This document shows, one piece after another, positions 9,256 through 36,009 of a stretch of 37,561 nt of DNA (the first letter of the stretch is position 1; the number at the start of each line of letters is the position of its first letter). A model generated the notes under the pieces. That model saw only the letters and a list, made by a program, of their open reading frames with translations. It ran no database searches and had not been told where the DNA came from. The stretch covers positions 31,280,722 through 31,318,282 of the forward strand of contig NC_057719.1 of assembly GCF_004010195.1 (NCBI RefSeq). The letters run 5' to 3'. The position numbers were made by a program, and so were the translations under genes. Source of the DNA: Chiloscyllium plagiosum. Taxonomy: Eukaryota.

Positions 9256-10207
9256 GATACAACATATGGAGTGCTGTAAAGTGGAAACAGGCTACTGAAT
9301 TGGATTATCACCCATGACCGAAATGAATGACAAAGCAGATTGAGCATGCCAAAAGTTCTACACCTGCTCTTATTTTCTGTTACAAGCCAAGAGTGAACCA
9401 CTTCCTTGAACTGAACCAATGCAGTTGGTGATTTTTTTTTTTAGTGTAACTTGAAAAGTATTAGACCCTGACCCTACAGAAACAGTTTTTCCTATGTTCA
9501 CCCTGTTTGGTCTTGTAAGAATTTTCAAAGTCTCCTCAAAATCAAAAATAGTAGTGATTTAAAAACAGAAAATGCAAGAGAAATTCAGAGACTGGAAGCC
9601 TCTGGAGAGAGAGCAAGATTTAATGTCTTAAACAACAGAAAAGGAATTGCGAATGTTGGAAATCAGAAACAAAACTGAATTGCTGGGGTAAAAAAAGCTT
9701 CTCAGACTTCCAGCATCTGTGGAGAGAAAGGTTTGGGTTGAAGTCATCTTTCGTCAGAAATTCTGTGTTTTACGATTTTATACTCCTTTTACACTTGATG
9801 AAGGAGCAGTGCTCCAAAAGGTAATGCTTCCACGTAAGTCTGTTGGACTAGAACCTGGTATTGAGATTTTTAACTTTGTGCACCCCAGTCCAACACTGGC
9901 ATCTCCAAATCCCTCTAAATACTTCTTATTCATATACCCACCCAGATGCCTATTCAGCATATACCTCGAATGGTCCAACCCTGACAACATCCTTGTAAAT
10001 TTTATCTGAACCCTTTTCAAGTTTCGCAACATTCCTTCCAGTAGGAAGGAAACCAGAATTGCACTCAACGTCCTCTTTGAAGTCACAAACTTTGACCAGT
10101 AAGTGGTTTAAGAAGGTTGTCCTTTACCATATTTCAGTCAGTGAAGGACAACAAATTTTGCCTAGTCAACAATACCCGCATCATTTCAAGGAACATTTTC
10201 ATTTGAT

Positions 10208-13022: not shown

Positions 13023-13039
13023 CATTTTAATTTGATGTG

Positions 13040-13615
13040 AGAGGAGCAGCCCACGCGAACACTCAAATGTCCCTAATGAGTACACGTGGAAACTACGCAT
13101 GGTCCAGACGATATTGACTCCTCTGGCACGCTCCACCAGGAGAATTCAAATTGCGCACGCGCAGTCAGCCCGATGGCCCTCGACCGACGGTCTTTGCACG
13201 TACGCATGCGCAGCTATTTGCCGTTATAGCGCGCGTGTGCAGTAGCTCCCTCTTTTTCTGTTTAGGGAGGTGTTGGTGAAGTCGTTCCTGTTTTCACTGA
13301 AACCGGCCCTGACTTTTCTCGGTGAGTGATCGCAGTTTGTCGAGTTCTGAAAGGACGGATTTATCCTCTCCTTGCCTTGACTGTGTTGCGGGCTGTGGAC
13401 TTTCAGCTCCTGGGGCTGTGTGTGTGTGTCAGCAAATGGCGCCGGGCCTGTGACCTGGGCTTCCCTTTGGGCCGGCGCCATTTGCTGGGAGTGCGGGCTG
13501 GCGGCGGCGGCACCTTCCTGCGGGAGGTCTATGTTAGAGGGTCTGAGGCTGGCGGATGTATTGGTAACCAGAAGCCACGCGGCGGCCTCCATTGGGCGAA
13601 TCTCACGTTTTGTGG
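13040..13615 (+). promoter_or_regulatory. FAU: CpG-island promoter of FAU copy 1 (ribosomal-protein-gene type)
   Basis: CpG-dense block in a CpG-poor window. E-box CACGTG 13083-13088; NRF1-like TGCGCACGCGCA 13152-13163 and TACGCATGCGCA 13201-13212; weak TATA-like TTATAG 13224-13229; TCT/5'TOP tract CTCCCTCTTTTTCT 13246-13259; two YY1-like AAATGGCG motifs in intron 1 (13434-13441 and the reverse within 13474-13483). Confidence 0.85.
13246..13321 (+). other. FAU: FAU copy 1 non-coding exon 1 (5'TOP)
   Basis: Starts in the oligopyrimidine tract (YCTYTYY initiator match at 13249-13255) and ends at donor G|GTGAGT (13322). FAU has a non-coding first exon. The exact TSS is uncertain by a few nt. 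Confidence 0.75.
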
Positions 13616-13724
13616 CTGTTCAGGGCATTGGTGAAACTATGTAAAGCGAATTCTTTTTTTCTGAACAAAAGAATATTAGAGGGCAGGAACAGGCTCTCAC
13701 CAAGAGCGCACCGACACATGACTG

Positions 13725-14875
13725 TTCAATCTCGCCTCGATGCTAATGCCCTCTAAATCGGGCAACATCCTAGTAAACTTTTTCTGTACCATCTCGAAAG
13801 CTCCCCCACCCCATCCTTCTAGTATTGCGTGACCAGAACTGTACATAATGTTCCAATATGGCCTAACTAAAATTCTATAAATCCACAACATGACTCGTTG
13901 ATTTTTTTTTGTACACTGTGCCCTGATTAGCAAAGGCAAGTATGTCATCTTGACCACCTAGTCCACTTTGAGGGAACTGTGCATCTGTATGCCTAGATCC
14001 TTTGACACCTACATTTACTGAATACTTCCCTTCTTCATTACGTCTTCCAAAGTGTATCACTTTGCATTTATCTTTATTAAAATCCATCTGCCATTTATTC
14101 ACCCAAGTCCCCAAGCTGCCTACATCCTGCTAGGTCCTCTTGCAAACTTCCTCACTGTCCGAAGCTTCCCCCAACCTTTTGTGTCATCGACACACTTACT
14201 AATCAGGCCACTTGCATTCTCCGATTCATTTATATATAATACAAACAAAAGCGGTCCTAGCACCGATCCCTGCAGAACACCACTGTTCACAGATCTCCAG
14301 TCAGAAAAAAACACCCACCACTATCGTCTTCTAATGACCAACTCAGATCTGTATTCATCCAGCCACCTCACTATGCATTCCATGGGACTGCCTCTTGTGT
14401 CAGCCAGCCACGTGGGACCACATTCCGTACTCTTTCTTCATCAATCACTTCTGTCACTTTCTCAGGAAATACAATCAATTTTGAGACTTTTTGCTAATCT
14501 TAATTTTTCCACATGAGTAAATTCTGACCTTAAGAATCTTCTCCAATAAATTTCCTATCACTGACGTGAGGCTCACAAGTTTGTAATTTCCCTTAAGCAA
14601 AGGAAGAATGTTGACTATTCTCCAGCCCACTGGAGCCCCTCGTGTCACCAGATAGGATACAAAGATTTCATATGTGACCACAGAACTTCCGTCCCTCAGC
14701 ATTCTTGGATTGGCCCCATCAGGTTTCAAGGACTTGTCAAACTTAATGCTTTTCAAAGTTCCCAACACCATCACCATTTATTAATATCAACATGCCCCAT
14801 AATGTTCACAAACCACCATGTCCTCCAGTGCAAGATATTTGTTAAGGACCTCACCCACTTCCTCCAACTTCACAC
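13725..14875 (-). mobile_element. CR1 LINE RT-region fragment in FAU copy 1 intron 1
   Basis: Broken ORFs with SGVLQGSVLGPLLFVLYIN...CVDDTK and WQMDFNKDKCKVIHFG. Confidence 0.88.
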
Positions 14876-14877
14876 AC

Positions 14878-16380
14878 CGAGTCGTAGAGATATACAGCAC
14901 AGAGCGCACACTTCTGCCTAACTTGTACGTGTTGACCAGATATCCTAAATTAATCTAGTCATGTTTGCCGGCACTTGGCCCACATTCCTCTCAACCCTTC
15001 TTATTCATAAAATCATCTAGTTGCCTTTTAAATGCTGTAATTGTACCAGCGTCCACCACTTACTTTGGCAGCTCATTCCATATGTCCACCACCCTTTGCC
15101 TGAAAAAGTTGCCCCTTAGATCCCTTTTAAATCTCCCCTCTTGCCTTAAACCTATGCCCTCTAGTCTGGACTGCATCGCCCCCAGGGAAAAGACCTTATC
15201 TATTTATCCTATCCATGCCCCTCATGATTTTATTAACCTCTATAAGATCACCCCTCAGCCTCTGATGCTCCAGAGAAAACAGCCTCAATCTATTCAGCGT
15301 CTTCCTATAGTTCAAACCCTCCAACCCTGGCAAAATCCTTTGTAAATCTTTTCTGAACTCCTTCAAGTTTCACAATATCCTTTCTATAGGAGGGAATTGC
15401 ACACAATATTCCAACACATCTATCCTGGGACAGGCGAAGCAAAGACATGCCAGAGAATTCCTAGAGGCCTGGCACTCCTCCTACAACGCCATAAACAAAC
15501 ACATAGATCTAGATACCATCTATCAACCCCTCAGAAAACAAACAGAAAATGACCACCACAAACCCCAGGAACCCCATCCAGGACAAACCTATAAATAGAA
15601 AGCAGGAGACAACAGCTTCGCTTCACTTGGAGGACGCCACTGAAGCTGTTTCCTAGCCAGGTAATGAAACGTCTGGATATCAAACCTGCTCCCCAAACCT
15701 CAGCCTGAGCTACAAACCTTGCATATTCCAAAAGTGGCTTAACCAATGTTAAGATGAAACATGACCTCCCAACCCCTATACTCAATGCTGTGATCAATAA
15801 AGGCAAGCATACCAAATGTCGTTTTCACTGTCCTATCTACCTGCGACTCCACTTTCAAGTAACTATGAATTTGCACTCCAAGGTCTTTTTGTTCAGCAAC
15901 ACCCCACAGGACCTTACCATGTAGTATATAAGTCCTGCCCTGATTTGCCTTTCCAAAATGCAGCACCTCACATTTATCTAAATTAAACTCCATCTGCCAC
16001 TCCTCAGCCCGTTTGCTCATGTGATCAAGATCCCATTGTACTCTGAGATAACCTTCTTCGCTGTCTACTGTACCTCCAGTTTTGGTGTTATCTGCACATT
16101 TACTAATTATATCTCCTATGTTCACATCTAAATTATTCATATAAATGACAAAAAGTGGTGGGCCCTGCACCAATCTTTGTGGCACATCATTGGTCACATG
16201 CCTCCAGTCTGAAAAGCAACCCTGCACTACCACCCTCTGTCGAACCGGTTCTGTATCAAAGTGGCTAGTTCTCGCTGTATGCCATATGTTCTAACCTTGT
16301 TAACTAATCTATCATGAGGAACCTTGTCAAATGCCTTACTGAAGTCCATATAGATCATATCCACCACTCTGCCCTCAATC
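14878..16380 (-). mobile_element. CR1 (HER1-like) LINE fragment
   Basis: ORFs with YMDFSKAFDKVPHDRL, VPQ..VQGPPLFVIYMN and WQMEFNLDKCEVLHFG, plus the 3' tail at 14878. Confidence 0.9.
15415..15722 (+). mobile_element. 5'-truncated Penelope-like element nested in CR1
   Basis: Encodes a GIY-YIG C-terminus (TSILGQAKQRHAREFLEAWHS..NAINKHIDLDTIYQPLR). Flanked by the 9-bp direct repeat ATATTCCAA (15406-15414; 15723-15731). Confidence 0.8.
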
Positions 16381-16384
16381 CTCT

Positions 16385-17610
16385 TAGAGTTTCTTTGTCC
16401 TTGAGTGGACCCATCCTTCCCTTCAGTACAGTCTTGCTCCTCCTGCATGTTAAAACACCTGTAATTTTCATTAATCCTGTTTACTAAAGACCTTTCGTCG
16501 CCCCTTTTGGTCTTCCTAATTCCGCTGTCTTTGTATTATTTCAGCGCTCTTGTGTCTTCAGTTTCCTAAATCTTACATATGCCTCCCTTTTTTCTCTTTG
16601 ACTAAACTCTCAATTTCTTCTGTTATCCAAGGTTCCCAAATCTTGCCATCCGCATTTTTTCCTTTTCACAGGAACACACTAGTCCTGAATTCTTAATCTA
16701 CTTTAAAAGAGTCCCCACATGATAGATGTGGGCTTACCCCAAAACAGCTAACTTCAATCTATATTCCCAAGTTCCTGCCTGATATTGTCATGGTTAGCCT
16801 TCCCCAAATTTCACCTTAAGACTTTTCTTACCCTGGCCTCGTTCCCCAACACCAGATCTTTTATGAGTACTTGCCTCGTTGAGTTATTGACATGTTGCTT
16901 CAAGAAACCCTTGCTGGATGCATCTAAAAAGTTCCCCCACTCCCACCCCCATCCAAGATCCTGGCACTTTGGGAGTCCTAGTCAATTTGGCAAAGTTAAA
17001 ATTACCCATTACTTATACGAAAATTCTTTTTACATTTTTCCATAATCTGTTCACTTACCTGTTCCTGTCTCCTGCTGGCTCTTGGGAGACTGCAATACAT
17101 CAAAGTGATGGTACTCTTTCTATTCCTGAGCTCTACCATATGGCCTCACTTAATGAGTCCCTCCAAGGTGTCCTCCCTCGGTACAGCTGTGATATTCTTT
17201 TCCCTGATCCCAACACCCTCATCTCTTTTTTGTATCCCTTTCTCGTGTGAAACGTCAGAATACTGGAACATTAAGCTGCCAGTCTGGATCCCTCGCAAAT
17301 AAGATTTTGTAACAGCTGCAGCATCATAATTTTGTGTACTAATCCAAGCTCTAAGTTCATCTGTCTTAACTGTCATACTCCTCACTTTAAAACACTACAG
17401 ACCACCAGTCCTGTAGTGTTCATTAACCTCTCCCTGTCTGTTCTTCCTCATAGCCTTACTGGCCTAAATCTGTAATTCCTTGGTTATTTCTCTTGCTTAC
17501 CTAATGGTCTGGACGCTACAGTTGGACGCATTTCCTGTATATGTAGTCTTCACAGACATTCAAACTATTTCTGGTTTCCTACATTCCGCAGGAGAAGCAT
17601 ACTACCTTGC
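16385..17610 (-). mobile_element. CR1 LINE 5' portion (AP-endonuclease region), decayed
   Basis: ORF 17146-17385 (KTDELRAWISTQNYDAAAVTKSYL) resembles the CR1 APE N-terminus. Confidence 0.75.
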
Positions 17611-18881
17611 TGATGTTTTTACCCTCTAGCAACTACTTAATTTTAAAAGATTATATTAACTTACAGCTAACTAAATGGTCCCTAAGGTTAGGTTCTCACT
17701 AAAAAACACTACATACACTATTGTGTGCAATAGTCTTGATACTATAAATCCTAATACTGTACTACTGTACCACTAGCTAAATCCCATTACACTCAAACTT
17801 TATGGATATTAAACGTTCATGGCAATTGAAGATGAGGAAAAATATCTCCTCACCCCAGTTTACCAATCAGAAGCCCTTCTGTCCAAAACATCTTTTTTGA
17901 ACTTGCAATGTCATAAAACACAACTCCCACTATATTCCCTGTGTAATTGATTAAGCTACTCAAAATTAAGCCCTGCACTTGAGTTTTTACCTGCTCCAGT
18001 TGCTGCCTCCTCCCTCTGACTTCTGGTTCCATTTGCTAGCTACTACTCAAAACTAGCAGTCATGGTGACTGTGCCAACATCTCCCAGAATCCTCCTCAGT
18101 TGCTTTGCACTGGTACCCTCTTGATGCTCTTCCTCCTCTTGAGCATTGTGTATTCTGCAACTCCCTATTCCGTAATGGTGACTGATTCAATTACTCCCAA
18201 AATCCTTGAGCACTTCTCAGTTTGCCCCATAGTGTGAAGGTATTGAGTATGTGGGACTGTCATTCTCAGAGAGTGGTAAATTAAGATCTCTTAAAGGAGT
18301 TGAAGGTTATTGAGATTAGATGGGAATGTAGCCTTGAGAACACAATTCCTAATCAACCATTATCTTATTTGATGACAGATCAGCAACAGCAGGCTATGGT
18401 CTATTTCTGCTACCATTAAATGTTCATAAAATGACCTCTTGAAATGGTGATGATTGTTGTTTGCATGTTTTCCCCTTCTCTTCCTTTTATTCCCTGCTCT
18501 GTATCATATTATTAAAGAATAGCAATTTACATTTAATGTAGTGTGTTTAACTTTTGAGTGTGAGGTAGTGTTCATCCTCAGTTGCCATGAGAATTCGGTG
18601 AAATCTTTCATAAATCATTATAGGAACAGTTTGAGGGGTGGCTTGCTAGGCCACCTCAAAGGATGATTAAGAGCATGGGTCTGCAATTGCCTATGGTCCA
18701 AATGAGTTAGATGGCAACTTTATTATCTAGATTTCTATTGGCACCAAATATGGAATTGTTTTTCTTGATGGCTGTCTTTATTTACTGTTATGAGTGGAAA
18801 CTGATTTGATATCTGAAGTTTTTAAGTGAAATTTGTGCAGTTAGTACTTCACTTGGATTTTTTTTGCCCCTTAGAATCACC

Positions 18882-18956
18882 ATGCAGCTGTTTCTACACG
18901 CTCAGAAGACCCACACGCTTGATGTGAATGGAGAAGAGACTGTTAGGCAAATTAAG
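18882..18956 (+). CDS. FAU: FAU copy 1 exon 2 (FUBI N-terminus)
   Basis: Acceptor TTAG ending 18874, CACC-ATG Kozak context, [25 protein letters not shown], donor GTAAAC. 75 coding nt. Confidence 0.95.
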
Positions 18957-19045
18957 GTAAACTAACTTCTCAATAGTAAACTAACTTTTTAAATCTTAAG
19001 ATCTTAACCTCTATTATTTTTATTTGTATATTTTTAATAATTACC

Positions 19046-21705
19046 AGGGAAAGAGTAGACCCACTCAAGGACAAAGGAGGAAAGTTATGCATGGTGCCAC
19101 AAGATGTGGGAGAGATCCTTAATGAGTACTCTGTATCAATATTCATCAAGGAGAAGGACATAACTGATGTTGAAGTCAGGGATGAGTGTGTGAATACTTT
19201 AGAGAAAGTCAGTGTACTGAAGGAGGACGTTTTGGGTATCCTAATTTGCATTAAGGTAGATGAGTGCCCAGGGCCAGATGGGATCTATCCCAGGTTACTA
19301 CAAGAGGCACGGGAACAAATAGTTCAGGCATTGGCAGATAACTTAACATCCTCTTTGGCCATAGGCAAGGTTCTAGTGTACTAAGAGATTAGCCAATGTT
19401 GTTCCTTTCCTTTAAGAAAAGAAGCAGGGATAATCTAGGAAATTATAGGCTGGTGAACCTGACATCTGTGGTGGGGAAGCTGTTGGAGAAGATATTGAGG
19501 GGCAAGATATAGGCACATTTGCAATAAAATGTTAGTGACGGGTATCATGGTTTTGTACGGGGTTGTCTCACCAACCTAATTGAATTTGTTTTTGAAAAAG
19601 TGACACACCTAATTGATGAGGGAAGGGCTGTGGATGTAGTTTTACATGGACTTTAGTAAGGCATCTGATAAAGTCCCACATGGCAGATGATACAAAACCA
19701 AAATCACGTGCGATTTTGGGTGGCCTGGCTCGATGGATACGACTGCTTTGGTCAAAGACGAGAGAGTAGTGGTGGAAGAGTGTTTTTCAGAATGGAGACC
19801 AGTAACTAGTGTTCCACAGGGATCAGTCTTTGGTCCCCTGGTGTTTGTAGTATACACAAAAATGTCGAGTATCCGAACGAGATGGGTGAGGAGTATTTTG
19901 TTCGGATAACTGATCTGATCGTAAACAAAGGAAGCCATACCGAACATAATTACATAAAAAAGCATGTTTAGAGTTTATATTTCATTCAGTTGATAAGTGT
20001 GCAAACACTGGATATTGCTTAAAAATTTGTGGTATTTTACAAAATCAAATCACTTTTGCGTAAATAAAATTCATTGAGGAGGAGGTTGGGTTATTTTTCG
20101 AAGAAAATATCTAGTTGCTGTTGCTTGAAGTGCTTGTGTTTCTTTGCTCCACTACTCCAATCACAGCTTCATGTACACTTCAAATGAGGCATCTACTAAA
20201 TCTATATTATTGGCGTCAATTTTATCAATCTTGGATGAATATATCTTTAGGTGTAACATTATGCCTCAGCATGTATAAAAGTCAAAGTAATTCTAACATG
20301 AAGTAATTTTTAATTTTAAATACTTACTATCTTAAAATTAGTTACTTAGTAAATATGGATATTTTTGGTAATTTTTCTTGGTCATAATTTCCTGCGATTA
20401 AAACACTGGAAATACTAAAACCAGACTGTTCATTACCCAGTACAAACTCCTCTCTCATCTTGATTTCATTTCATTTGCCAGCTTTCAAATTGAAGCAGAT
20501 CATTCAAAATTCACATCGCACTTCTGGCAACACTCCTGCTATTTCAGACCAGGTGAAATTCTATCCATTCATTTGCAATCTTATTTGATGATTGAAGTAC
20601 ACTCTGACCATCTTTCCAACCACACCCCTCGCCGCACTCCATAAATATTACACCAATTAAAATCCCATATGCTGTTGCAGTCAACTCATCACCCTCCTTG
20701 CTGATGCACTCAGATTTCCTGATTGCGATTGTTGCACCAGTGTCGGTAACATTACTTTGATGTAATGTTTTTACAGGGCCTCGAGATCTTGTTCGGATAA
20801 TCCGAAGTTCAGATAATTGGTGTTCAGATAACAAAGGTTATTCTGTTTATATAAAATGATTTGGAGGAAAATGTGGATGGTCTGATTAGTAAGTTTGTGG
20901 ATGACACAAAGATTGGAGTTGTTGATAGTGCCGATAATTGATTGTGAAAGGAGACAACAGAATGTAGATGGGAGACTTGGGCACAAATGGCAGATGTCGT
21001 TTAATTCACACAAATGCAACATGATGCATTTTGGAAGATCAAATTTAGGTGTGAATTATACTGTAAATGGCAGAACCCTTGGGAACATTAATATACAGAC
21101 AGACCTGGATGAGAAGGTCCATAGATGGCCAAAGTAATTCAGAAGGCACATGACATGCTTGCCTTCCTTGGCCAGGGCATGGAGTACAAGAGTTGGCGAA
21201 CCATGTTGCAGCTATATAAAATCCTTATTAAGCCGCAGTTGGAGTATTGTGTATAGTTTTGGTCACCACACTACTAAAAGGACGTGAAACCTTTGGAGAG
21301 AGTACAGAGAAGGTTCACCAGGATGTTGCCTGGTCTTGAGGGCATTGGCTTTGGAGAAAAGTTTTTTTAAAAAAAAATAGGATTGCTTTCGCTGGAAAAA
21401 TGGCGGCTGAGAGGAGACTCTACAAAATTGAGAGGTATCGATTGAGTGGGTAGTCAAAGGCTTTTCCCCAGGGTTGAAGTTTCAATTACAAGGGGGCAGA
21501 GGTTCAAGGTGGGTGGGGGGGAAAGTTTTAAGGGAGGTGTGTGAGGGAAGCTTTTCATGTAGAGTGGGAGGAGCCTGGAACGCACTGCCAGAAGAGGTGG
21601 TGGAAGCAGACACGTTGGCGACATTTAAGAGCCATCTAGGTGTTTGCATGAGCAGGAAGAGAATAGAGGGCTATGGATCGAATAAGGCAGAAGGTTTGTT
21701 TTTAG
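19046..21705 (+). mobile_element. CR1 LINE in FAU copy 1 intron 2, split by a DNA transposon
   Basis: ORF pieces EILNEY..SIF, CPGPDGIYPRLL, YMDFSKA.DKVPH, WQMSFN..KC and WNALPEEVVEA. Absent from the equivalent position of copy 2, where homology stops at ...AATTACC 19045/36096. Confidence 0.9.
19855..20845 (-). mobile_element. Tigger/pogo-like (Tc1-mariner) non-autonomous DNA element
   Basis: Interrupts CR1 at a TATA site. Degenerate 24-bp TIRs (15/24) ending TATC(C/T)GAAC. Subterminal GTTC(G/A)GATAA repeats at 19900, 20791, 20807 and 20822. Minus-strand KQQQLDIFF at 20100-20126 resembles a pogo/Tigger transposase C-terminus. Confidence 0.7.
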
Positions 21706-22457
21706 CATGTAAGCTTGCTCGCTGAGCTGGAAAGTTTGTTTTCAGACATTTTGTCACCATACCAGGCAACATAATCAGTGAGTCTCTGGTGAAGCCTGAT
21801 TTGATGTGTACTTAAATCACCACTGAAGTAATTTCTACAAATTCTGTTTAGAGGTGACTCCATACTTAGATACAGTATGAGAGATTAGCCTCTGTCATAC
21901 AACAGTGTGCTCCTTGGTGTGCTCTATTCTTTATTCTTTTAATTGCAACTGTCACTGCAAAACCTCCTCAATTCGTAAGTGTAGAAAGTCAAGTGGTTTG
22001 GGATTATAACAGATTATTACAGTAATCAGGTGAAGTCTGTGCTGTTTAGGTAATGCATGTTTAGATAATGTTTTAATAATCCCTATTACATCAGTGTTTA
22101 TAAAATGGCTTTTTGGTCAGTCAGCTGGTAAGAAAGAAGGTGAACTGTACTCTAAAAATGCATTTCATTGAGTATGTGACAGACTTTAATAAAGTAGATG
22201 CGACATTACTGTATCGTGTTGTGATATTTTGCAGTAGACATTTGTGAAGTTTTTTTATTCACTGCTGGCTACAAAAATTTAATTGTAAATTCAATTTGGG
22301 ATGTGAAATTTTTGGGTTCCATGAGTAACAGTCCAAAAAATCCTGTTCTGTATACCTTTAAATGTTAAAGTGCTGATTATTTTGTATATTGATCCTTGGA
22401 CAGTTCTGTTTTGCTTGCCCCAAGAATCTCATTTATGATTTTCTTTTTTTAATTCAG

Positions 22458-22602
22458 GCCCATGTCGAATCCCTAGAAGGAGTCTCTGCTGTTGACCAAG
22501 TGCTCCTCTTGGCTGGTACTCCCTTAGATGATGATGCCATCATAGGCCAATGTGGTATAAATGAGCACTGCACACTAGAAGTAGTTGCTCGATTGCTGGG
22601 TG
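22458..22602 (+). CDS. FAU: FAU copy 1 exon 3 (FUBI C-terminal part)
   Basis: CAG acceptor, 145 nt, [48 protein letters not shown](G), donor GTATGT. The ubiquitin-like di-Gly is completed across the junction. Confidence 0.96.
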
Positions 22603-23525
22603 GTATGTATTATTATGATTTGAATTTCCCTAATCAGTATTTTTTTAAAAATTGTGTTGAATGTTTACAGTATTGGCAGCAGAGTCATTTCAATTGACCT
22701 GATAGGTTAGTGTTTGCAGCATAACCATCGGCATTGCCATCTATTTCTTTCTCTGTATAATTATGAAGAAATTCCCTTAAATACATTAACATTAGGTTGC
22801 ATAAAGATGTGTAGTGCATTTTGTAGAGGTAATCTTGTTGATAAATATTGAAGAATTATTTGCCACATAACCATATTATTGCCACCAAAATTAAACTCAA
22901 ACTCACTATTTTCTCTATGCTGATGTCACATAAATTGCCTTTCCTCAGTTTGTTGCAGATCATGGAATGGTTGGTGTTAAGAAATTTGACTTTGGAGTGT
23001 GCCAATGTTAATATCAATTACTTTTTTTCAGATTTTAATAAGATTGTTTTTTTTTTGCTGAGAACCCATGCCTTTTTCGTTGTCCAAGGGTGCTGCATCC
23101 CTAGTTGAATTAAGCATGGAATTGTAGATATTTTCTCAAACTATTTAGAGATGTTATTTCCTGTGGAGCAGTGCTATTCAAACCTGAGCCTCTTGGTCTG
23201 GAGATAGGGATACTACCACTGCATCATGTGTCAAGTCTAAATTGTATGTTGTTGGTTTGGTGCTAGTAACTGAGTTGTTCAGTAAATGAATAAGCTCTTC
23301 AGTGGTGTATACTTTCCTCTAATAATTGCTTAAGTATGTGGAGGTTTGTGCACCAGCCTCGAGATGGTCGAACAGCTCTTGCAAGTCTGTATATGACTTA
23401 AGATCTGTCTAGAATGTCTCGAATATAAATTTACAAACAGTAAACCAAAAGTTTAGTTTGGAAGTCTGTTTATGATGTCTGTCTTAAAATAGACCATAAG
23501 CTTTTTTTCACTCCCTTATTTTTAG

Positions 23526-23581
23526 GCAAGGTCCATGGATCCCTTGCTCGTGCTGGGAAAGTGAAAGGTCAGACTCCCAAG
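23526..23581 (+). CDS. FAU: FAU copy 1 exon 4 (ribosomal protein eS30 N-terminus)
   Basis: TAG acceptor, 56 nt, (G)[18 protein letters not shown], donor GTAAGC. Confidence 0.96.
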
Positions 23582-23866
23582 GTAAGCTTGACTGACTGAA
23601 GGCAACCTGCAGCAAAAGTATCTAAGATTTTCTTGTACTTTTGTGTTTTTGTATATCTAAACAATATGCACACAATTGTATTGAATGTGATGAACAGCCA
23701 TACTAGTAACTATCAGGTGAATTATCAATCTGAATTGTCTCACCTGTCAAGGCCATGAGTCATTGCATAATCTCTATTATTGGTTGGTGTTTGTCAATGA
23801 TAAAAAGCCATTTCCAATTTGATTGAAGTTTTGTGTTCATTTTAGTTAACAAAACTTTACACCAGG

Positions 23867-26590
23867 TTCATAATTTCATAAGATATAGAAGCAGAATAGA
23901 CCATTTAGCCCATTGAGTCTACTCCACTATTCAGTCATGGCCGAAATACTCCTCACTCCCATTTTCCTGCCTTCTCTCTATAACTCTTCAACCCATTACC
24001 AGTTAAAAATCTAACTCCTTCTTAAATTTACTCAGTATCCCAGCATCCAATGCACTTTGGGGTAGCAAATTCCACAGATTCACAACCCTTTGGGAGAAGT
24101 AGTTTCTCCTCAACTCTGTTTTAAATTTGCTACCCCTTAAGCTCAGACTTGCCTCACAAGAGGAAGCATTTCCTCCACGTCTATTTTATCTGTACCTTTT
24201 ATCGTGAATATCTCAATTTGATCTCCCCTCATTCTTCTAAATTCCAGAGAATATAGGTCTAAATTGTTCAATCTCTGTTCATATGTCAAACCCCTCATCT
24301 CTGGAATTGATGTAGTGAACCTTCTCTGAACTACCTTCAGTGCCACTACATCTTTCCTCAAATCAAGGACCAAACCTGTGCACAATACTTCAGGTGCGGT
24401 CTCACCGATGCTTTTACAATTGCAACAATACTTCCTTACATTCATGTCTGTTCCTTTAGCTATAAAAGCCAACATTTCATTTGCTGCCTTTTTTATCTGC
24501 TGTACCTGTATGCTAGTTTTCTATGACTTATGAACGAGGACACCCAGATCCCTCTGCACCGGAGCACCCTGAAGTCTCTCTCCATTTAGATAATAGCTCG
24601 CCTTCCCATTTTTCCAACTAAAATGCAAGACCTCACTTGCCCACATTAAACTCCATCTCCCACACTTTGGCCCACTCTCTTAACCTATCTATATCCATTT
24701 GTAAGAATCTTATTTCCTCATTGCACTTTACAGTCCCACCTATTTTTGTGTCATCCCCATATTTATCTATAGAGCCTTCTATCTCTGTATCCAAGTCGTT
24801 AATGTAGATTGTAAATAGCTGCGGTCCAAGGATCGAACCCTGTGGCACCCATTAGTTACTACTTGCCATCCAGGAAAAAAAAATCCATTTATCCTGACTC
24901 TGTTTTCTGTCCATCAGCCAGTCACCTATCCAAGCTAATAAATTATCCCTAATCCCATATGATCCAACCTTTTGTGAATTAACCTTTTGTGCAGCACCTT
25001 ATATCTGGACATCCAGAAGGTGTATGATATTATATCTACAGGATCCCCATTGTCCACTTTAGTCGTTACATCTTTGAAGAGCTCTAGCAAATTAGTCAAA
25101 CATGATTTGCTCTTCATAAAATCATGCTGACTGACGGCGTATTGACTTTCTAAATGTCCTGATATTGCTTCCTTGATAATTGATTCCAACACTTGCCCAA
25201 CAACAGATGTTAAGCCATCTGGTCTGTAATTTCCCATATTGCCTCCCTCCCTTTTTGAATAGGGATGTTACAGCATTTTTCCAATCCACTGGAATCTTTC
25301 CTGTATGCAGGGAATCTTGAAATACAATAACCAACGGATCCATTATCATCGTGACCACATCTATTAATACCCTTAGATTTAGGCCATCAGGCCCAGGGGA
25401 CTTGGCTGTCCTCAATCCCAGTAGTTTGCTGAGTACCTTTTCCCTGTCGATGTTGATTGTTCTAAGTTCTACGCTTTCTATTGCCTCTGACTTGCCCATT
25501 CCAATTGAAATGGTACTATTGTTGTCTGTGAAAACTGAGGCAAAGTATTGATTCAGCATCTCTGCCATTTCAGTGTTCCCCACTATTAACTCTCCAGTTT
25601 CATCTTCCAAGGGACCAACATTCACCTTAGCAATTCTCTTCCTTTGTATATACCGATAGAAGTTTCCTTTGATATTTTATGCTAGTTTTCTTTCATAATT
25701 TACCTTGGCTCTTTTTATTAATTTTTTTAGTTTCTTTGTTTGAAAGTTTCCCATTCTTCCAGCCTGCCACTGTCCTTTGCAATATGGTATACCTTAGTTT
25801 AATTTTATATAACCCTTTCCTCCTCGTTTAACCATAAATGTTTTCTTTTACCACCCTTATCATCTTTTTTCCTCACTGGGGTATATTTTAGTTGTGAGGA
25901 ATTGAGTAGCTGCTGAAACAATTGCCATTGCTCCTCTGCTGTCTTATCTCTTAGCCTTCCTGTTCAATTTACTCTGGCCTAATCTGTCCTCCTGCAAGTG
26001 TAATTTCTTTTGTTTAATTCCAGAACACTAGTATGGGACTCTACTTTCTCACCCCCAAACTGAATTTTGAATTCAATCATACTATGGTCTCTATTCCCCA
26101 GAGGATCCTTAACCATGATGTCATCAATTAATCTCTTCATTACACAATACCAAATCCAGAGTAGCCTGCTCCCTGGTTGGTTCCACAACATACAGCTCTA
26201 AGAAACAATCTCTAATACATTCAGTGAACTCTGCCTTTAGGCTACCCTTGCCAATTTGATTCTTCCAATCTGTTTGTTAAAATCACCCATAAGTATTGCA
26301 GAATCTTTCTTGCAATCCTCTAATACTTCCTGGTTTTTACTGTGCCCCATTACGGAACCACTATAGACTACTCCTACCAAGTATTTCTTCCCTTTTGCTA
26401 TTTCTTATTTCTACCCAGACTGCTTCTACATCTTGATCTCCTGTGTTTATGTCATTTCTCATTACAGCATTGATCTTTCTTCACCAGCAAAGCAACACAG
26501 CCTTCAGGACTCTTGATCTTAGTCACAGAGAACAGTGTCTATGCCCCGAACTATACTATCCCCAGTTACAAGTACATTTCCCGCCCCTGC
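23867..26590 (-). mobile_element. Long decayed CR1 LINE (ORF1 esterase remnant, endonuclease, RT) in FAU copy 1 intron 4
   Basis: Ordered ORF fragments: VLVTGDSIVRGID (ORF1 SGNH), [63 protein letters not shown]. 3' tail at 23867-23915. Confidence 0.92.
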
Positions 26591-26696
26591 TTGAATGATA
26601 AAGTGCAATGATAAATTTCCTTTCAGTAGAACTCTTATAATCTGGAGGCTGTGAATACACAACAGTCTTAAGTCTTGTACACACGTGGGAACCTCT

Positions 26697-27760
26697 AAGT
26701 CATAGAAGCAGAAGTAGGCCATTCAGCCCATCAGGTCTGTCCACCATTCAGTGAGATCTTGACAGATCTGGTAATCCAAGACTCTGCTTTCCTGCCTCTG
26801 CTTTATAACCCTTGATTCCCTTACAGATTAAAAATGTCTATCTCAACTCTGAATAAACGTAAGGACCCAACCTCAACAACTGTACGGTAAAGAATTCTAT
26901 AGATTCACAACCCTCAAAAGACATTCCTCCTCATCTGTTTTTAAAATATGCAACCCCTTATTCTGAAATGATGCTGAGACACTCTGGCGAAGGGAAATAA
27001 CCTTTGTCTATCCTGTCAAGTCCCTGAATCTTGTTTTAAGGTCCTGTTCTTCTATATTTGAATCAATACAAGCCCAATCTACTCAATGCTCCTCAAAGAC
27101 AATCCCTCTATGACTGGTATCGCCCTAGTGAACCTTCTTTGAGCTGCCTGCAATGCCATTGTATCATTCCTTAGACGAATGCTCCAAAACTGTTTGGTAT
27201 TCCATGTTTGGGACTGATTAGTGCCTTCCTTCCTTTCTTTTCATTCCTTATGAAATAAAGGCTGAGTCATTTCCTCATCCAAGTCATTAATATATATGTA
27301 AATTATTGTTGAGTTAATATGGATTCCTGTAGCACACCCTTAAACAGATCGCCAGCCTGAAATGCCTCCGGTATCTCATCTATATTTCGTTAGTTAACTA
27401 ATTCTCTATCCATGCTAGTATACTTGTAACCTCCATGAAGAATTTTAGAAAATTGCAGGCACGATTTCCCCATCATTATGCCATGCTGACTTATGATCGT
27501 ATCATGCATTTCTGAATGCTCTGCTACTACACATTCTTTTGTTATAAACTAATAGTTTCTCACTAACTGTCATAAAGCCTCTTCCCTTTTGTTAATTAAA
27601 GGCGTTAGATTGGTAGTTTTCCAATCCTCTGGGACTTAAAGGATTTCTGGAAGATTGTCAACAGTGCTTCTGTAGATGTTGCCTGACCTCCTGTGATTTC
27701 CAGCATTTTTGTTTTCGGGATATGCTTCCACTATCTCTAACTACTTCCCATGAGATGTAT
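26697..27760 (-). mobile_element. Second, more decayed CR1 fragment
   Basis: 3' tail GTCATAGAAGCAGAAGTAGGCCATTCAGCCC, followed by sequence colinear (with deletions) with the 23867-26590 element. Confidence 0.78.
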
Positions 27761-27997
27761 CTTAACATTTAGAATCAGGCGGTTTATTGGTTGTTAGCCC
27801 AATTAGTTTCCCTTTCACTTGCTATCTAGTGATAGTTATTTATTTCCTGTCCTTTTTATGTCTTGACCTCTGACATCCTTTTCTTATTTGGGAAAGCACA
27901 TGCCCTGCAATACTGCTTTTTGCCAAACTTGGCTCCAAGTGTTAGTGTTGTTTTCTACTAATATTTTAAATTTTCACTGATTTATTCTTTTGCATAG

Positions 27998-28123
<126 letters not shown>

Positions 28124-28255
28124 AATGTTGTTTTTCATCAAACTCAATGAAATGAATTGATATCTCTGCCTCCCTACCTTACAGACTGGCTCACTCAACT
28201 GGAGCTATTTCAGAAATGAAGTAATTGGTTTGTATTCAAATTCTGGATTGTGATT

Positions 28256-28295
28256 AATAAACATTTATTTCCAGCAGTTTTGAGTTTTTGTCTTG
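28256..28295 (+). terminator. FAU: FAU copy 1 polyadenylation signal
   Basis: AATAAA at 28256-28261, ~130 nt after the stop, followed by a T/GT-rich downstream element (GTTTTGAGTTTTTGTCTTG). Confidence 0.8.
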
Positions 28296-29344
28296 ATCTG
28301 TTCTATAGTATAACTTAATTCACTATATTCTGCTGATCCTTACTGTTAAGTTGATTGCTATTACAAAGCTATCTTGTCAATGATTAAGATTTCTTCTTTG
28401 ATACATTCTAGTTATGAGGTATGTTAAATTCTAGTTGCATTGTCTACTGGATTCTATATTGATGCAGTGATTTGTGCCTAAATTTATAATGAGTGTAAAC
28501 TTGAGAGATTTTTGTCTGAGGATCTAAGGCAGGGAATGCAGTCACCTTGGAAATGAGCTTAAATGGGAACAAATTATAATCACGATTTAATATTTATTCA
28601 ACATTTGATATCAAATTAAACCATAAGGGTTTTGTAACATAATTGATCTTTACTGATATGGTGGATTTCAAATCCAGCTAACTTGATTCACTTGGTCTAA
28701 TTGGCCTTGAGGAAGAGAGAAAGGGTAATTACAAATAATGTCCAATATCATCTGCACCCCATGGATTATTCTATCATATACAAGTGCTTGGCCATTATGG
28801 GATCTACAAACTAATGTCCTCCCTGGTTTACATGATTCTTAAAACTGAATCCTCATTTAAGAAAGGACTGCCAGTAACAGTTATTGGAGCTGCTAGTGGC
28901 AAATGAATCAAAGGCAATTTAATAAAAATAACCCTGGGTCAGCTCTTATTGTATTACTAGCCCTCCGATGATGGTCAATTCCTACTTTTAAGTTCAGATG
29001 CTTTTTTTTTAAACCTACGGAAAGAAATTCCACTAAATTTGGAGGAATTCCCTTAAAGCTCACTTACCCCCTCTTGATTTTATTCTGCATACCCTATGCC
29101 ATATTAGTCAGCTGTTTTTTGTCTACTGAAGCAGGACCAAAAAGACAGCCAACTATCAGTGTTAGAATAATACTCAAGTGCAAATCTCTGCTTTCAGTAA
29201 GATGGTGTAGAGGCAAGTTTAATCCAAAATCATTTTATAATTATAAAATGATTTTGGTGTCCAAATCACCAAAATTTTGTGTCAAAACAATAAAATTCAA
29301 ATTCCATTGGCTTCTGGTATCCTGGGCATAATTTAAACTATTCG

Positions 29345-29985
29345 AGGAGAAAGTGAGGACTGCAGATGCTGGAGATCAGAGCTGAAAATGTGTTGCTGGA
29401 ACAGCGCAGCAGGTCAGGCAGCATCCAAGGAACAGGAGAATCGACGTTTCGGGCATAAGCCCTTCTTCAGGAATGAGGAAAGTGTGTCCAGCAGGCTAAG
29501 ATAAAAGGTAGGGAGGAGGGACTTGGGGGAGGGGCTTTGGAAATGCGATAGGTGGAAGGAGAAATCTGAGTTCTCCAGTTTCCTCATTTCCTCTCCCCCC
29601 ACCTTGTCTCAGTCAAATCCCTCGAACTCAGCACCGCCTTCCTAACCTGCAATCTTCTTCCTGACCTCTCCGCCCCCACCCCACTCCGGCCTANNNNNNN
29701 NNNNNNNNNNNNNNNNNNNNNNNNNNNNNNNNNNNNNNNNNNNNNNNNNNNNNNNNNNNNNNNNNNNNNNNNNNNNNNNNNNNNNNNNNNNNNNNNNNNN
29801 NNNNNNNNNNNNNNNNNNNNNNNNNNNNNNNGGCGCAAGCTTTGCATTTCTTGCGGTTGCAGGGGAAGGTGCCGGGAGTGGAGTTGGGTTGGTGGGGGGT
29901 GTGGACCTGACGAGGGAGTGGTCTTTTCGGAACGCTGATAGGGAAGGGGAGGGAAATATATCCTTGGTGGTGGGGTCCGTTTGGA
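29345..29985. mobile_element. Penelope-like element spanning the assembly gap
   Basis: Starts with ACTGCAGATGCTGGA...GTTGCTGGAA...CAGCAGGTCAGGCAGCATC, the same motif class as 12687-12750 and 630-835. Purine- and pyrimidine-rich segments lie in opposite orientation. Confidence 0.6.
29694..29831. other. Assembly gap (138 N)
   Basis: Run of N. Confidence 1.
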
Positions 29986-30254
29986 CTAGTTGGTTAAATT
30001 CAAACTGCTGTCAAAACAACCACCAAAACTCAGGTGTCCATTTTCCAGCCATTTGTTACATTTACAGCAGCCTCATCTTTAGCTGGCTGCTGTGCCTTAC
30101 TTTAAATTCAGAAAAGCAGTTTAAGATAGAAAGTGATCATACATTCTTTGAGTTTTGAGACACTTTTAAATCTCAATTCTATATACAACAAATTTAAAAA
30201 GCGAGTAAAGTTGTAGTTTAGTCCAAATCGCTTATGGCACAGGAGATAAGTTGG

Positions 30255-30885
30255 TACAAGCAGTTCAGGATGAATGTAATCCCAAAGTAAACTCGTCCCA
30301 CCTGTCTGGGTTTTGTCCATACTCCTCCAAACATTTTTTATTCATGTACTTATCTATCTTAAACATTTGTAACTACTTGCATCCACCACTTCCTCTAGAA
30401 TTCTATACACAAACCACTGTTTAAAAAAAAAAAAATTTCTTTGTTTTAAAAGAGTGCCAATCCCCACCCTCTGGAAAAGACATCTGCCAATCACCTTGTC
30501 TATACCCCTCATGATTTCATTAACCTCTACAAGGTCACCTCTGAATCTCCTATACTCCAGAGAAACCTTACCTTATAACTCAAACCCTTTGGTTCCAGAA
30601 ACTTCCTGGTAAATCTTTTCTGAACCATCTCCACCTTAATATGCCCTATAACAGGGTGACCAGAACTATATGCAGCACACTAAAGAGGCCTCACCAGCAT
30701 CTTGTAAAATCTCAACATAATGTCCCAACTCCTGTACTCTAGTTGTGAGCAAAAAAGCAATCTTAGCCACCCTATCTACGTGTAGCAAACTTCAAAGAAC
30801 AATATACCTGAAGCATCATCTGCAAACACAACTATGACTTCAGCACCTTCATATAAATCCCTTATATAAATGACAAAAGTGAACC
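30255..30885 (-). mobile_element. CR1 LINE 3' fragment
   Basis: Colinear with the CR1 copies at 1486-2192 and 7419-8710. Confidence 0.8.
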
Positions 30886-31552
30886 CTATCCATTATCATT
30901 CTAAGCAGCAATCCAATCAGTCACATTCTACTCAACTTCTTAGTCCTGCAGGTTTACTCCCTTCAATACCCATCAAATTCTCTTTTGAAATCATTGGTTC
31001 TGCAGCCTTGGCACCTTCCAGATCATAACTACTCAGTGAGTACAAATATACTTCATGTTGTCTCACACTCCTCCCAGATTGCGTTGAAACTTGCAATTAT
31101 TTTATATACAGTGCCCTGTTGTAGAACATCTCAGCCAGCAGAAACAGAGTCAAGAGTTGCACAGCACGGAAACAGACCCTTCAGTCCAAATTGCCTATGC
31201 CAACCAGATATCCTAAATTAAATTAATCCCATTTGTCAGCATTTGGTCTTTTAAATAATGTAACATCCTGTTATTGGCCAGAAACTCAACTGGACTCAAC
31301 ACAAACACAAGTGCCTACAAGAGCAGGTCGGAGGCTAGGAATACTGGAAAACTCATCTCCTAACTCCCAAAGCCTATCCACCTAGATGGCATAAGTTAGG
31401 AGCGTGATCTTTTCTGCATTCATCCTGCCTACACTTGTAAAATGTTTTTAAGTCCTAACAAAACAAGAATATCAGTTCTTCTCTACTTTATCTCAAAGAT
31501 TGTAGATTCTGCCTTACACACACCATTTCAAGGAACATTTTAATTTGATGTG

Positions 31553-32130
31553 AGAGGAGCAGCCCACACGAACACTCAAATGTCCCTAATGAGTACACGT
31601 GGAAACTACGCATGGTCCAGACGATATTGACGACTCTGGCACGCTCCACCAGGAGAATTCAAATTGCGCACGCGCAGTCAGTCCGATGGCCCTCGACCGA
31701 CGGTCTTTGCACGTACGCATGCGCAGCTATTTGCCGTTATAGCGCGCGTGTGCAGTAGCTCCCTCTTTTTCTGTTTAGGGAGGTATTGGTGAAGTCGTTC
31801 CTGTTTTCACTGTGAAACCGGCCCTGACTTTTCTCGGTGAGTGATCGCAGTTTGTCGAGTTCTGAAAGGACGGATTTATCCTCTCCTTGCCTTGACTGTG
31901 TTGCGGGCTGTGGACTTTCAGCTCCTGGGGCTGTGTGTGTGTGTCAGCAAATGGCGCCGGGCCTGTGACCTGGGCTTCCCTTTGGGCCGGCGCCATTTGC
32001 TGGGAGTGCGGGCTGGCGGCGGCGGCACCTTCCTGCGGGAGGTCTATGTTAGAGGGTCTGAGGCTGGCGGATGTATTGGTAACCAGAAGCCACGCGGCGG
32101 CCTCCATTGGGCGAATCTCACGTTTTGTGG
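31553..32130 (+). promoter_or_regulatory. FAU: CpG-island promoter of FAU copy 2
   Basis: Near-identical to 13040-13615. Same E-box, NRF1-like sites (31665-31676), TOP tract (31759-31772) and paired YY1-like sites (31945-32002). Confidence 0.85.
31759..31836 (+). other. FAU: FAU copy 2 non-coding exon 1 (5'TOP)
   Basis: TOP tract and donor G|GTGAGT at 31837. Differs from copy 1 by one substitution and a 2-nt insertion. Confidence 0.72.
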
Positions 32131-32131
32131 G

Positions 32132-32452
32132 AGGGTGAGACCGCATCTCAGGGTGAGACCGCATCTGGAGTACCGTGTACAGAACTGGCCGCTCTGTTTA
32201 CCGAAGGAATTTAATGTCTCTGAGGTAGATCATGGAGGTTTTATAACACTTGGTGGAGTGAGTGAATTGCCTCATGATTGAAGGTACTGTGGTGTTTAGA
32301 AGAGTCAAAGGTGACATCGGGTCTACGTGGAAGGGATATTTCTCTTGTGAGGTAATCGAGAATTAGGGATCATATTTTTTTTTAAAATGAGGGTATGAGG
32401 AAAACCTTTCTCCAGAGTGACTGTTTTTTGGAATTCTGTTCTCCAAAATGCT
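32132..32452 (+). mobile_element. Decayed CR1 3' coding fragment abutting the copy 2 promoter block
   Basis: VRPHLEYRVQNW.. is the CR1 VRPHLEYCVQFW motif. Confidence 0.7.
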
Positions 32453-32454
32453 GT

Positions 32455-35510: not shown

Positions 35511-35934
35511 GTATCGTTAGCCTTGTCGTGTGAGGCAGTGTTCAACCCTAGTTGCTATGAGAAGTTGGTGGAATCTTTTGTAAACCACTACAGGAACAGT
35601 CTGGGAGATGGCTTGCTAGGCAACCTCAAAGGTGATTAAGAGTATGGGTCTGCAATTATGTATGGTCCTAACAAGTTAAAAATGACCAGTTTACTGCCAT
35701 TAGTTGAACTAACTAAACTTTATTGGCAATGAATATAGATTCATGTATTTCAGAGGTACCAGAGGATCAACAGTGATATCTGTGCATGAGCTGTTCCTTT
35801 TGTTGAAATATTTTATTGATGGCTATTTGTATTATTTGACTGGAAGCCAATTTGGAAATGAGTTGTAAGTGAAATGTAGGCACTTAGTGTTTTACACATT
35901 GAAAGATATTTTTGTTTTGTTTCCTAGAAGTATC

Positions 35935-36009
35935 ATGCAGCTGTTTCTACATGCTCAGAAGATCCACACTCTTGATGTGACTGGGGAAGAGACTGTTGGG
36001 CAAATCAAG
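35935..36009 (+). CDS. FAU: FAU copy 2 exon 2 (FUBI N-terminus); remaining exons would lie beyond the window
   Basis: Acceptor CTAG ending 35927, ATG 7 nt in (as in copy 1), [25 protein letters not shown], donor GTAGAC. 68/75 nt identical to copy 1. Confidence 0.9.

What the first reader, a model, noticed from the sequence alone, without database searches (positions are those of the whole stretch)
13023..32130. Promoter-only homogenisation: two old FAU paralogues share a ~99% identical 595-bp regulatory block
Seen: 13023-13615 and 31536-32130 differ by only ~5 substitutions and one 2-nt indel (counted by eye), and the ~290 nt of intron 1 in the block appear identical. In contrast, the coding exon 2 copies differ at 7/75 nt and the alignable intron 1 segments (18558-18708 vs 35528-35677) at about 26/150. 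The introns also carry different TE insertions. Non-coding DNA is thus more similar than coding DNA, with abrupt edges. The block spans the NRF1-like sites, TOP initiator, exon 1, splice donor and YY1 pair. Inference: recent or recurrent interlocus gene conversion confined to the CpG island. This would keep transcription and TOP-dependent translational control synchronised while the proteins diverge.
Basis: partly seen in the sequence, partly recalled or inferred. Interest (0 to 1): 0.78.

Follow-up and report, generated by a model that had tools for sequence, protein, structure and literature searches.

The report
Shark ribosomal-gene twins share one promoter
Two old neighbouring copies of a ribosomal-protein gene (FAU) in a bamboo shark differ by about 10-20% elsewhere but share a 99% identical 600-base promoter block, likely because DNA is copied between them (gene conversion), a known process seen here in the reverse of the pattern reported for fungal ribosomal genes.

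Summary
Observation confirmed: 13023-13615 and 31536-32130 differ by 5 substitutions and one 2-nt indel; the 294 intronic nt are identical; exon 2 differs at 7/75 and its surroundings at 103/497. Both paralogues exist in two Chiloscyllium species and Hemiscyllium, so the pair is old. Independent runs support three of four junctions; copy A's left junction was not recovered. Orthologous sequence in other species differs from both copies by 6-9%, which argues against purifying selection and for interlocus gene conversion. Corrections: the edges sit at an insertion on the left and at unalignable intron on the right, so the block is the last long homology island and need not be CpG-island-targeted. 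The shared block is 10 nt longer in other individuals. The proteins differ at only 5/133 residues, none in eS30. Adaptive synchronisation is untested. 5'-restricted conversion is known (BEX/WEX/GASP, GSTT2), and this scan noted a camelid case on other DNA. This is a new member, the mirror image of fungal ribosomal-protein conversion.

The parts
13023..13615 (+). Homogenised block, copy A (FAU 'faua' type): promoter CpG island, exon 1 and 5' part of intron 1; shared stretch reaches 13625 in other individuals
31536..32130 (+). Homogenised block, copy B ('KIHTL' paralogue)
13252..13321 (+). Exon 1 of copy A, starting at a C in the pyrimidine tract 13246-13259 (TOP-type start, label recalled); lacks the TG found in copy B; donor CG|GTGAGT
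   Evidence: (depth 3,000-15,000 over 13228-13350 in X3; exon-only piece 13252-13321 in X18)
31765..31836 (+). Exon 1 of copy B (TG+ version)
   Evidence: coordinates by offset from copy A
13152..13211 (+). Two NRF1-like GC palindromic motifs (label recalled)
13430..13487 (.). Inverted repeat, 19-nt arms 95% complementary with 20-nt spacer, each arm holding a YY1-like core; same in copy B (about 31945-32002)
   Evidence: (DNA fold -25.4 kcal/mol, z -5.27, 0 of 200 shuffles)
10211..13022 (.). 2.8-kb insertion with inverted ends that forms copy A's left edge; Penelope-like by recalled motifs, no Pfam hit
10194..10210 (+). Outer copy of a 17-nt target-site-like direct repeat; 15/17 to the inner copy (13023-13039), which equals copy B's 31536-31552
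   Evidence: only 3 matches at >=14/17 in the window
10152..10193 (+). Residual old homology to copy B's left flank 31494-31535
32131..32148 (+). Window-specific small duplication/rearrangement at copy B's right edge, 13 nt longer than in run X1
   Evidence: record 7, 13 letters left out
18875..18956 (+). FAU A exon 2 (ATG at 18882)
22458..22602 (+). FAU A exon 3; 48/48 to the C. plagiosum faua protein XP_043553253.1
23526..23581 (+). FAU A exon 4
27998..28261 (+). FAU A exon 5 (stop at 28121-28123, AATAAA at 28256)
35928..36009 (+). FAU B exon 2 (ATG at 35935); the rest of gene B lies beyond the window
18539..18709 (+). Alignable non-coding segment of intron 1 (80-83% to 35509-35678), not homogenised
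   Evidence: no Rfam match
29694..29831 (.). Assembly gap of 138 N between the two genes

Best explanation
Two old tandem FAU genes 18.5 kb apart share a 99% identical promoter/exon-1/intron-1 block, likely kept alike by repeated non-allelic gene conversion that likely stops where insertions have broken the homology. Shown: the genes predate the Chiloscyllium-Hemiscyllium split, the block differs by 0.8% between copies but by 6-9% from other species, its left edge in copy A is an insertion junction, its right edge is where alignable sequence ends, and two exon-1 versions are expressed. Inferred: after the duplication, transposon insertions cut most of the homology into short diverged pieces; the promoter stayed insertion-free, so it is the one stretch long and similar enough to pair; a break in one promoter (open chromatin, possibly meiotic promoter breaks, possibly the hairpin at 13430-13487) is repaired from the other copy; each event resets identity and favours the next. 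The likely result is two co-regulated genes that act as dosage duplicates, whether or not selection favours it.
For: Old pair: A clade 97/94, B clade 89/85, each with C. plagiosum, C. punctatum and H. ocellatum; same-length chromosome records for both copies in each species. Ortholog further than paralogue: the C. punctatum A-type model GCC24788.1 reads 31 codons from the orthologous promoter and needs at least 7 changes in 93 nt, all at sites where both window copies agree (against 5/593 p=3e-4). Organism C holds 0.15 of the block's words against 0.78-0.88 for the five best organism-A runs; its exon-1 piece has 6 other letters in 70 and its orthologous intron flanks 11 in 224 and 15 in about 265. 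Real loci: in X1 the block contig ends at 13625 and two contigs start 30 letters (k-1) before that point, one into flank A (depth 14.7) and one into flank B (16.3). X3 bridges the right junction of A; X1 and X3 bridge the left junction of B. TG+ and TG- exon 1 both occur in X3 (10,017 of 16,077 depth TG+) and X15 (3,207 of 5,370). Internal clock: the target-site-like copy inside the block equals copy B, the copy outside has 2 changes. Not ultraconserved: three haplotypes at 13535/13547 and a microsatellite length variant among runs. Hint of the same boundary in organism C: its flank-B contig also ends 30 letters from the branch point. Theory: conversion continues until substitutions, TEs or large indels disrupt pairing (PMC3924837, passages).
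Against: No contig covering copy A's left flank (12900-13022) at high identity was listed in X1 (84% read) or X3 (whole). Depth of the X1 contig (23.5) fits a fully doubled block with SNP bubbles but also a doubling of the 3' 328 nt alone (expected 20.2-23.6). All data laid are collapsed short-read contigs, so alleles cannot be phased to a paralogue, and the window's 0 differences in the 3' part may be partly assembler collapse. No other species' copy-B promoter was seen, so recurrence rests on the organism-C branch point and on the clustering of all 5 events in the first 276 of 593 nt (p about 0.02). In the same 93 nt the paralogues differ at 3 sites against at least 7 for the ortholog (p=0.33). 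C. punctatum A agrees with window copy A at 13119-20, and the TG deletion looks fixed in one copy, so homogenisation is incomplete. The linkage of TG+ to gene B in mRNA is taken from the window and was not seen in reads.
Confidence: 0.63

Rival explanations
1. One recent long-tract event (a single conversion or promoter replacement) in this species' lineage copied one promoter over the other; there is no recurring process.
For: Every observation within organisms A and B fits one event followed by drift. No second species' pair of blocks was read.
Against: Organism C's flank-B contig ends exactly 30 letters from the A/B branch point, as expected if its two copies also share that 30-mer. Differences cluster in the 5' half (p about 0.02), suggesting tracts of different ages.
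Confidence: 0.2
2. Assembly effect: short-read collapse inflated the identity, or the 5' half of copy A's block was filled in from copy B.
For: N gap in the scaffold. Copy A's left junction not recovered. X1 depth is compatible with only the 3' part being doubled. Copy B's alleles at 31568, 31632-3 and 31785 were not seen in X1 or X3 contigs. Both window copies share 13547G and the shorter microsatellite where X1 and X3 contigs differ.
Against: The right end branches into both flanks in X1. Copy A's block starts exactly at a 17-nt repeat whose diverged twin lies on the far side of the insertion. An A-type gene model from another species' assembly carries the 5' half of the block. Two exon-1 versions are expressed in two studies. 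X3 likewise lacks the flank-B contig that X1 holds, so such contigs do drop out.
Confidence: 0.1
3. Purifying selection alone has kept both promoters near the ancestral sequence in a slowly evolving lineage.
For: The block holds promoter, TOP and YY1-like elements. Sharks have a low mutation rate (PMC10587355, passages).
Against: Other-species sequence differs by at least 7/93 and by 6/70, about the same as neutral flanks. Organism C holds only 0.15 of the block's words. The block is polymorphic within organisms A and B. It is more alike than the coding exon.
Confidence: 0.05

Closest known systems
[quoted passage not shown]
   Same: Neighbouring genes whose 5' non-coding part is homogenised by conversion independently of diverged coding regions, giving chimaeric histories.
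   Different: There more than 20 fast-evolving genes of three families share a 5' UTR motif; here two conserved housekeeping paralogues share a whole promoter, exon 1 and 300 nt of intron, with insertion-defined edges.
GSTT2/GSTT2B promoter conversion in humans (PMC3375281; passages seen)
   Same: Conversion spreads a promoter change between tandem duplicates that carry CpG-island promoters.
   Different: There the whole young duplicate is 99.4% alike and one copy is dying; here only 600 bp is alike between old, intact, expressed genes.
Concerted evolution of fungal ribosomal-protein duplicates (Mullis et al., PMC6993855; passages seen; also as reviewed in PMC3924837)
   Same: Conversion between retained ribosomal-protein gene duplicates.
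   Different: Opposite polarity: in fungi the coding sequence is homogenised, probably from cDNA, while promoters and introns diverge. Here promoter and intron are homogenised, so the donor must be genomic DNA, and exon 2 is not.
Patchy conversion bounded by TEs and large indels (Fawcett and Innan review, PMC3924837; passages seen)
   Same: Predicts that conversion persists where pairing is not disrupted and ends at insertions, as at both edges here.
   Different: General theory; no ribosomal-protein promoter case appeared in the passages seen.
5'-limited conversions of SIGLEC11/SIGLEC16 and of beta-like globin genes
   Same: Tracts that cover promoter and first exons of older paralogues.
   Different: Those tracts include coding exons; this one ends 5.3 kb before the first coding exon.

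Membership tests
FAU (FUBI-eS30) genes | Ubiquitin-like domain fused to eS30, non-coding exon 1, four coding exons | tested here: met
   Exon peptides match shark FAU proteins (PF00240+PF04758), exon 3 48/48 and exon 5 41/41; for copy B only exons 1-2 are in the window
Interlocus gene conversion | Both copies are real genomic loci | tested here: inconclusive
   Three of four junctions supported in independent contigs; left junction of copy A not recovered
Interlocus gene conversion | Duplication is older than the tract's identity implies | tested here: met
   A and B clades span two genera; 21% divergence around exon 2 against 0.8% in the block
Interlocus gene conversion | Paralogues within a species closer than orthologues between species | tested here: met
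   At least 7/93 (C. punctatum A), 6/70 (organism C exon-1 piece, probably a retrocopy), word share 0.15, against 5/593; covers parts of the block only
Interlocus gene conversion | Discrete tract with divergent homologous sequence outside | tested here: met
   74.6% identity just left of the tract across the insertion
Interlocus gene conversion | Polymorphisms shared by both loci | tested here: inconclusive
   Three haplotypes at 13535/13547 among runs, but contigs are collapsed and unphased
Interlocus gene conversion | Non-reciprocal transfer seen in pedigrees or gametes | not testable with these tools
   Needs sperm or pedigree long-read data
BEX/WEX/GASP-type 5' concerted evolution | Coding tree by paralogue, 5' tree by species, in several lineages independently | tested here: inconclusive
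   Coding tree by paralogue met; no second species' pair of blocks obtained
Fungal-type (cDNA-mediated) ribosomal-protein conversion | Coding exons homogenised, introns and promoter diverged | tested here: not met
   Exon 2 differs at 7/75 while 294 intronic nt are identical
CpG-island promoter | Over 200 bp, GC above 0.5, CpG o/e above 0.6 (criteria recalled) | tested here: met
   589 nt, GC 0.56, o/e 0.91; methylation not tested
5' TOP mRNA | Start at C followed by a pyrimidine run; growth-dependent translational control | tested here: inconclusive
   Sequence and exon-only piece starting at C13252 fit; no raw-read start site (X22 laid 0 reads); control not tested

The most novel reading that the evidence does not exclude
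Bamboo sharks keep a rare DNA-level ribosomal-protein duplicate because recurrent, promoter-initiated conversion locks the two promoters and TOP leaders together in every lineage, preserving ribosomal-protein stoichiometry while the cleaved FUBI moieties drift. The tract would then be a footprint of promoter-directed meiotic breaks in sharks, whose PRDM9 is reported as partial, and a natural test of conversion as a dosage-coupling device.
Probability: 0.2. Interest if true: 0.68.

Novelty: new member of a known kind. Interest (0 to 1): 0.42.

Why it matters
Intact DNA-level duplicates of ribosomal-protein genes are rare in animals (28 of 14,552 duplication events in mammals, PMC4219774, passages). 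Where ribosomal-protein duplicates are known to convert, in fungi, the coding sequence is homogenised and the regulatory DNA diverges. This pair shows the reverse, with clean edges and several congeners and sister genera available, so it is a tractable case for asking whether conversion couples the expression of dosage-sensitive duplicates or is a by-product of residual homology. It could also indicate where recombination starts in sharks. It also means that short reads on FAU exon 1 cannot be assigned to a paralogue except by one 2-nt indel. The process itself is known.

Tried and rejected
No whole genome is held for this window, so flanking synteny and genome-wide repeat counts were not examined. 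Raw single-cell run X22 laid 0 reads on 31100-32600: no test of start site or phasing. Organism C (X18, 64% read) gave no contig over most of the block: a hole, not evidence of absence. Copy A's left flank was not listed in X1 or X3: reported as open. Rfam at gathering threshold: 0 matches in the window, so no snoRNA explains the conserved intron segment or the hairpin. Pfam gave 0 families for the six frames of the 2.8-kb insertion and for three frames of copy B's intron 1; RVT_1 hit copy A's intron 1 below the curated cut-off. Absolute dating from the pedigree mutation rate was dropped because it would make the duplication implausibly old; only relative divergences are used. The protein tree could not place the Stegostoma pair, so a duplication older than Hemiscylliidae is not claimed. 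Literature searches for a reported shark FAU duplication and for promoter-limited conversion in ribosomal-protein genes listed no such paper; only listings were seen, the library lacks most subscription journals, and no supplements were read, which could hold such gene lists. Earlier scan notes by place and by 'FAU shark' words gave nothing.
Full report
Observation. The two blocks are as described. Self-BLAST aligns 13023-13615 with 31536-32130 at 98.8%: five substitutions (13055, 13119, 13120, 13169, 13272) and a TG present only in copy B. All lie in the first 276 nt, and the 294 intronic nt are identical. Exon 2 differs at 7 of 75 nt, 4 of them synonymous, and the alignable region around exon 2 at 103 of 497 columns with no identical run over 18 nt. 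Between the block and that region nothing collinear aligns except chance-level pieces; copy A's intron 1 holds a reverse-transcriptase remnant (RVT_1, E 1.6e-5, below cut-off) and copy B's holds repeats found elsewhere in the window. The block is a CpG island. A 138-N gap separates the genes.

The genes. Copy A is a complete five-exon FAU gene; its exon 3 matches the Chiloscyllium plagiosum 'faua' protein at 48 of 48 residues. Copy B's exon 2 encodes the 'KIHTL' variant seen in a second protein of C. plagiosum, C. punctatum and Hemiscyllium ocellatum, in each case on a chromosome record of the same length as the first. In a tree of 22 chondrichthyan proteins, A (97/94) and B (89/85) each group across the two genera, so the duplication predates their split. 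Stegostoma also has two copies on one chromosome, but they fall unresolved outside the hemiscylliid pair. The C. plagiosum A and B proteins differ at 5 of 133 residues, all in FUBI; FUBI is cleaved from eS30 (PMC8354635, search listing only).

The edges. Left of copy A's block lies a 2.8-kb insertion with inverted ends (10211-13022; Penelope-like by recalled motifs, no Pfam hit). Beyond it, homology to copy B's left flank resumes at 74.6% (10152-10210 vs 31494-31552; 0 of 2000 shuffles). A 17-nt direct repeat flanks the insertion. Its inner copy begins the block and equals copy B; its outer copy has two changes. The sharp left edge is therefore an insertion junction, and the inner copy has been kept like copy B while its twin drifted. 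On the right, run X1 and organism C show that the shared sequence runs to 13625; the window's copy B has a private rearrangement 13 nt longer at that point.

Is it an artefact? No genome was available. Twenty of 24 listed runs hold part of the block; five were laid. In X1 one 826-nt contig joins copy B's left flank (219 nt) to the block and ends at 13625; two further contigs begin 30 letters before that point and run into flank A (depth 14.7) and flank B (16.3), the signature of a de Bruijn branch. X3, from another study, bridges the left junction of B and the right junction of A. Exon 1 with and without the TG occurs in X3 (62% TG+) and X15 (60% TG+); contig depth is a poor measure of expression, so only co-occurrence is claimed. 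Against: no contig for copy A's left flank was listed in X1 or X3, and the X1 depth of 23.5 fits either a doubled block with bubbles or a doubling of the 3' part only. The flank is a high-copy repeat, X3 also lacks the flank-B contig that X1 has, and an A-type model from a C. punctatum assembly carries the block's 5' half, so a misjoin is unlikely but not excluded. The best holder may not be independent of the window's source, but X1 and X3 differ from both window copies at 13547 and at the microsatellite.

Conversion or selection? The C. punctatum model GCC24788.1 has an N-terminal extension read from the orthologous promoter. It needs at least 7 nucleotide changes in 93 nt, all at sites where the two window copies agree. 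This is a lower bound from amino acids. Within those 93 nt the paralogues differ at 3 sites, which is not significantly fewer (p=0.33); against the whole block the contrast is p=3e-4. Organism C holds 0.15 of the block's words, which corresponds to about 94% identity if coverage is complete (my arithmetic), close to its 5-6% divergence in orthologous intron flanks. Its exon-1-only piece, probably a retrocopy, has 6 other letters in 70. The block also varies within organisms A and B: three haplotypes at 13535/13547 and a TG-repeat variant. So the block evolves at a near-neutral pace between species yet stays within 1% between paralogues, only a few times the diversity reported for epaulette shark (0.002, PMC10587355, passages). 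That is the pattern of concerted evolution. At 13272 both exon-1 versions read G in X3 and X15, so some window differences are probably polymorphisms; the TG deletion is the one difference that looks fixed, and it is derived, since C. punctatum A and organism C have the TG.

Mechanism. Shown: old pair, discrete tract, heterologous edges, intron included (so the donor is genomic DNA, not cDNA). Inferred: insertions left the promoter as the only long, similar, uninterrupted homology; breaks there are repaired from the copy 18.5 kb away; tracts stop at the heterologies (PMC3924837, passages). Candidate break sources are untested: open promoter chromatin; promoter-directed meiotic breaks (PRDM9 in elephant shark lacks SSXRD and is not fast-evolving, and whale shark's SSXRD is weakly predicted, PMC5519329, passages; bamboo sharks not examined); and a strong hairpin at 13430-13487 (z -5.27). 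Recurrence is suggested by organism C's contig ending at the same branch point (336 letters, 279 laid, 37 between, leaving 20 in the block plus 10 shared) and by the clustering of differences (p about 0.02), but a single recent event is not excluded. Co-regulation is the expected consequence; that it is selected for is not shown, and the coincidence with the CpG island needs no targeting.

Comparison. 5'-restricted conversion between diverged neighbours is known from BEX/WEX/GASP (PMC1274310, abstract and passages; lead from scan note e1-8046045) and promoter conversion from GSTT2 (PMC3375281, passages). In fungal ribosomal-protein duplicates the polarity is the reverse (PMC6993855, passages). 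Searches listed no report of the shark FAU pair or of promoter-only conversion in a ribosomal-protein gene (listings only, partial library, no supplements read).

Verdict. A real feature, most likely interlocus gene conversion in an insertion-bounded promoter island (0.63 recurrent, 0.2 single event), with artefact (0.1) and purifying selection (0.05) as minor rivals. It is a new, well-defined member of a known kind; interest 0.42.

Noticed in passing
window 32127-32160 and run X15 record 16: Copy B's right edge holds a donor-like AGG|GTGAGA that copy A lacks, duplicated in the window. X15 depth rises over 13548-13625 in a contig that continues unlike flank A, and gene B has two RefSeq protein accessions in both Chiloscyllium species. 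A B-specific alternative 5' exon is possible.
   Followed up: no
window 18539-18709 and 35509-35678: A non-coding intron-1 segment retained at 80-83% in both paralogues amid unalignable DNA; no Rfam match. Possibly a regulatory element.
   Followed up: partly
run X18 record 21; protein P0012: An exon-1-only piece (13252-13321) with unrelated flanks looks like a FAU retrocopy in organism C. H. ocellatum has a third FAU protein on another chromosome with changes in eS30.
   Followed up: partly
protein P0010 (GCC24788.1): The C. punctatum model has a 52-residue N-terminal extension that reads through promoter and exon 1; probably a mis-annotation.
   Followed up: yes
FAU proteins: Both hemiscylliid paralogues share H6, N60 and C122, whereas the Stegostoma and Rhincodon pairs differ at 122 (C/Y). 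This fits either separate duplications or earlier conversion of coding exons.
   Followed up: partly
window 29224-29257: Perfect 34-bp AT-rich palindrome between the two genes.
   Followed up: no
window 648-806: A 159-bp self-complementary stretch (80.5%), MITE-like.
   Followed up: no
window 13070-13096 and 13242-13268: A weaker inverted repeat (27 nt, 70%) pairs the start-site pyrimidine tract with upstream promoter sequence.
   Followed up: no
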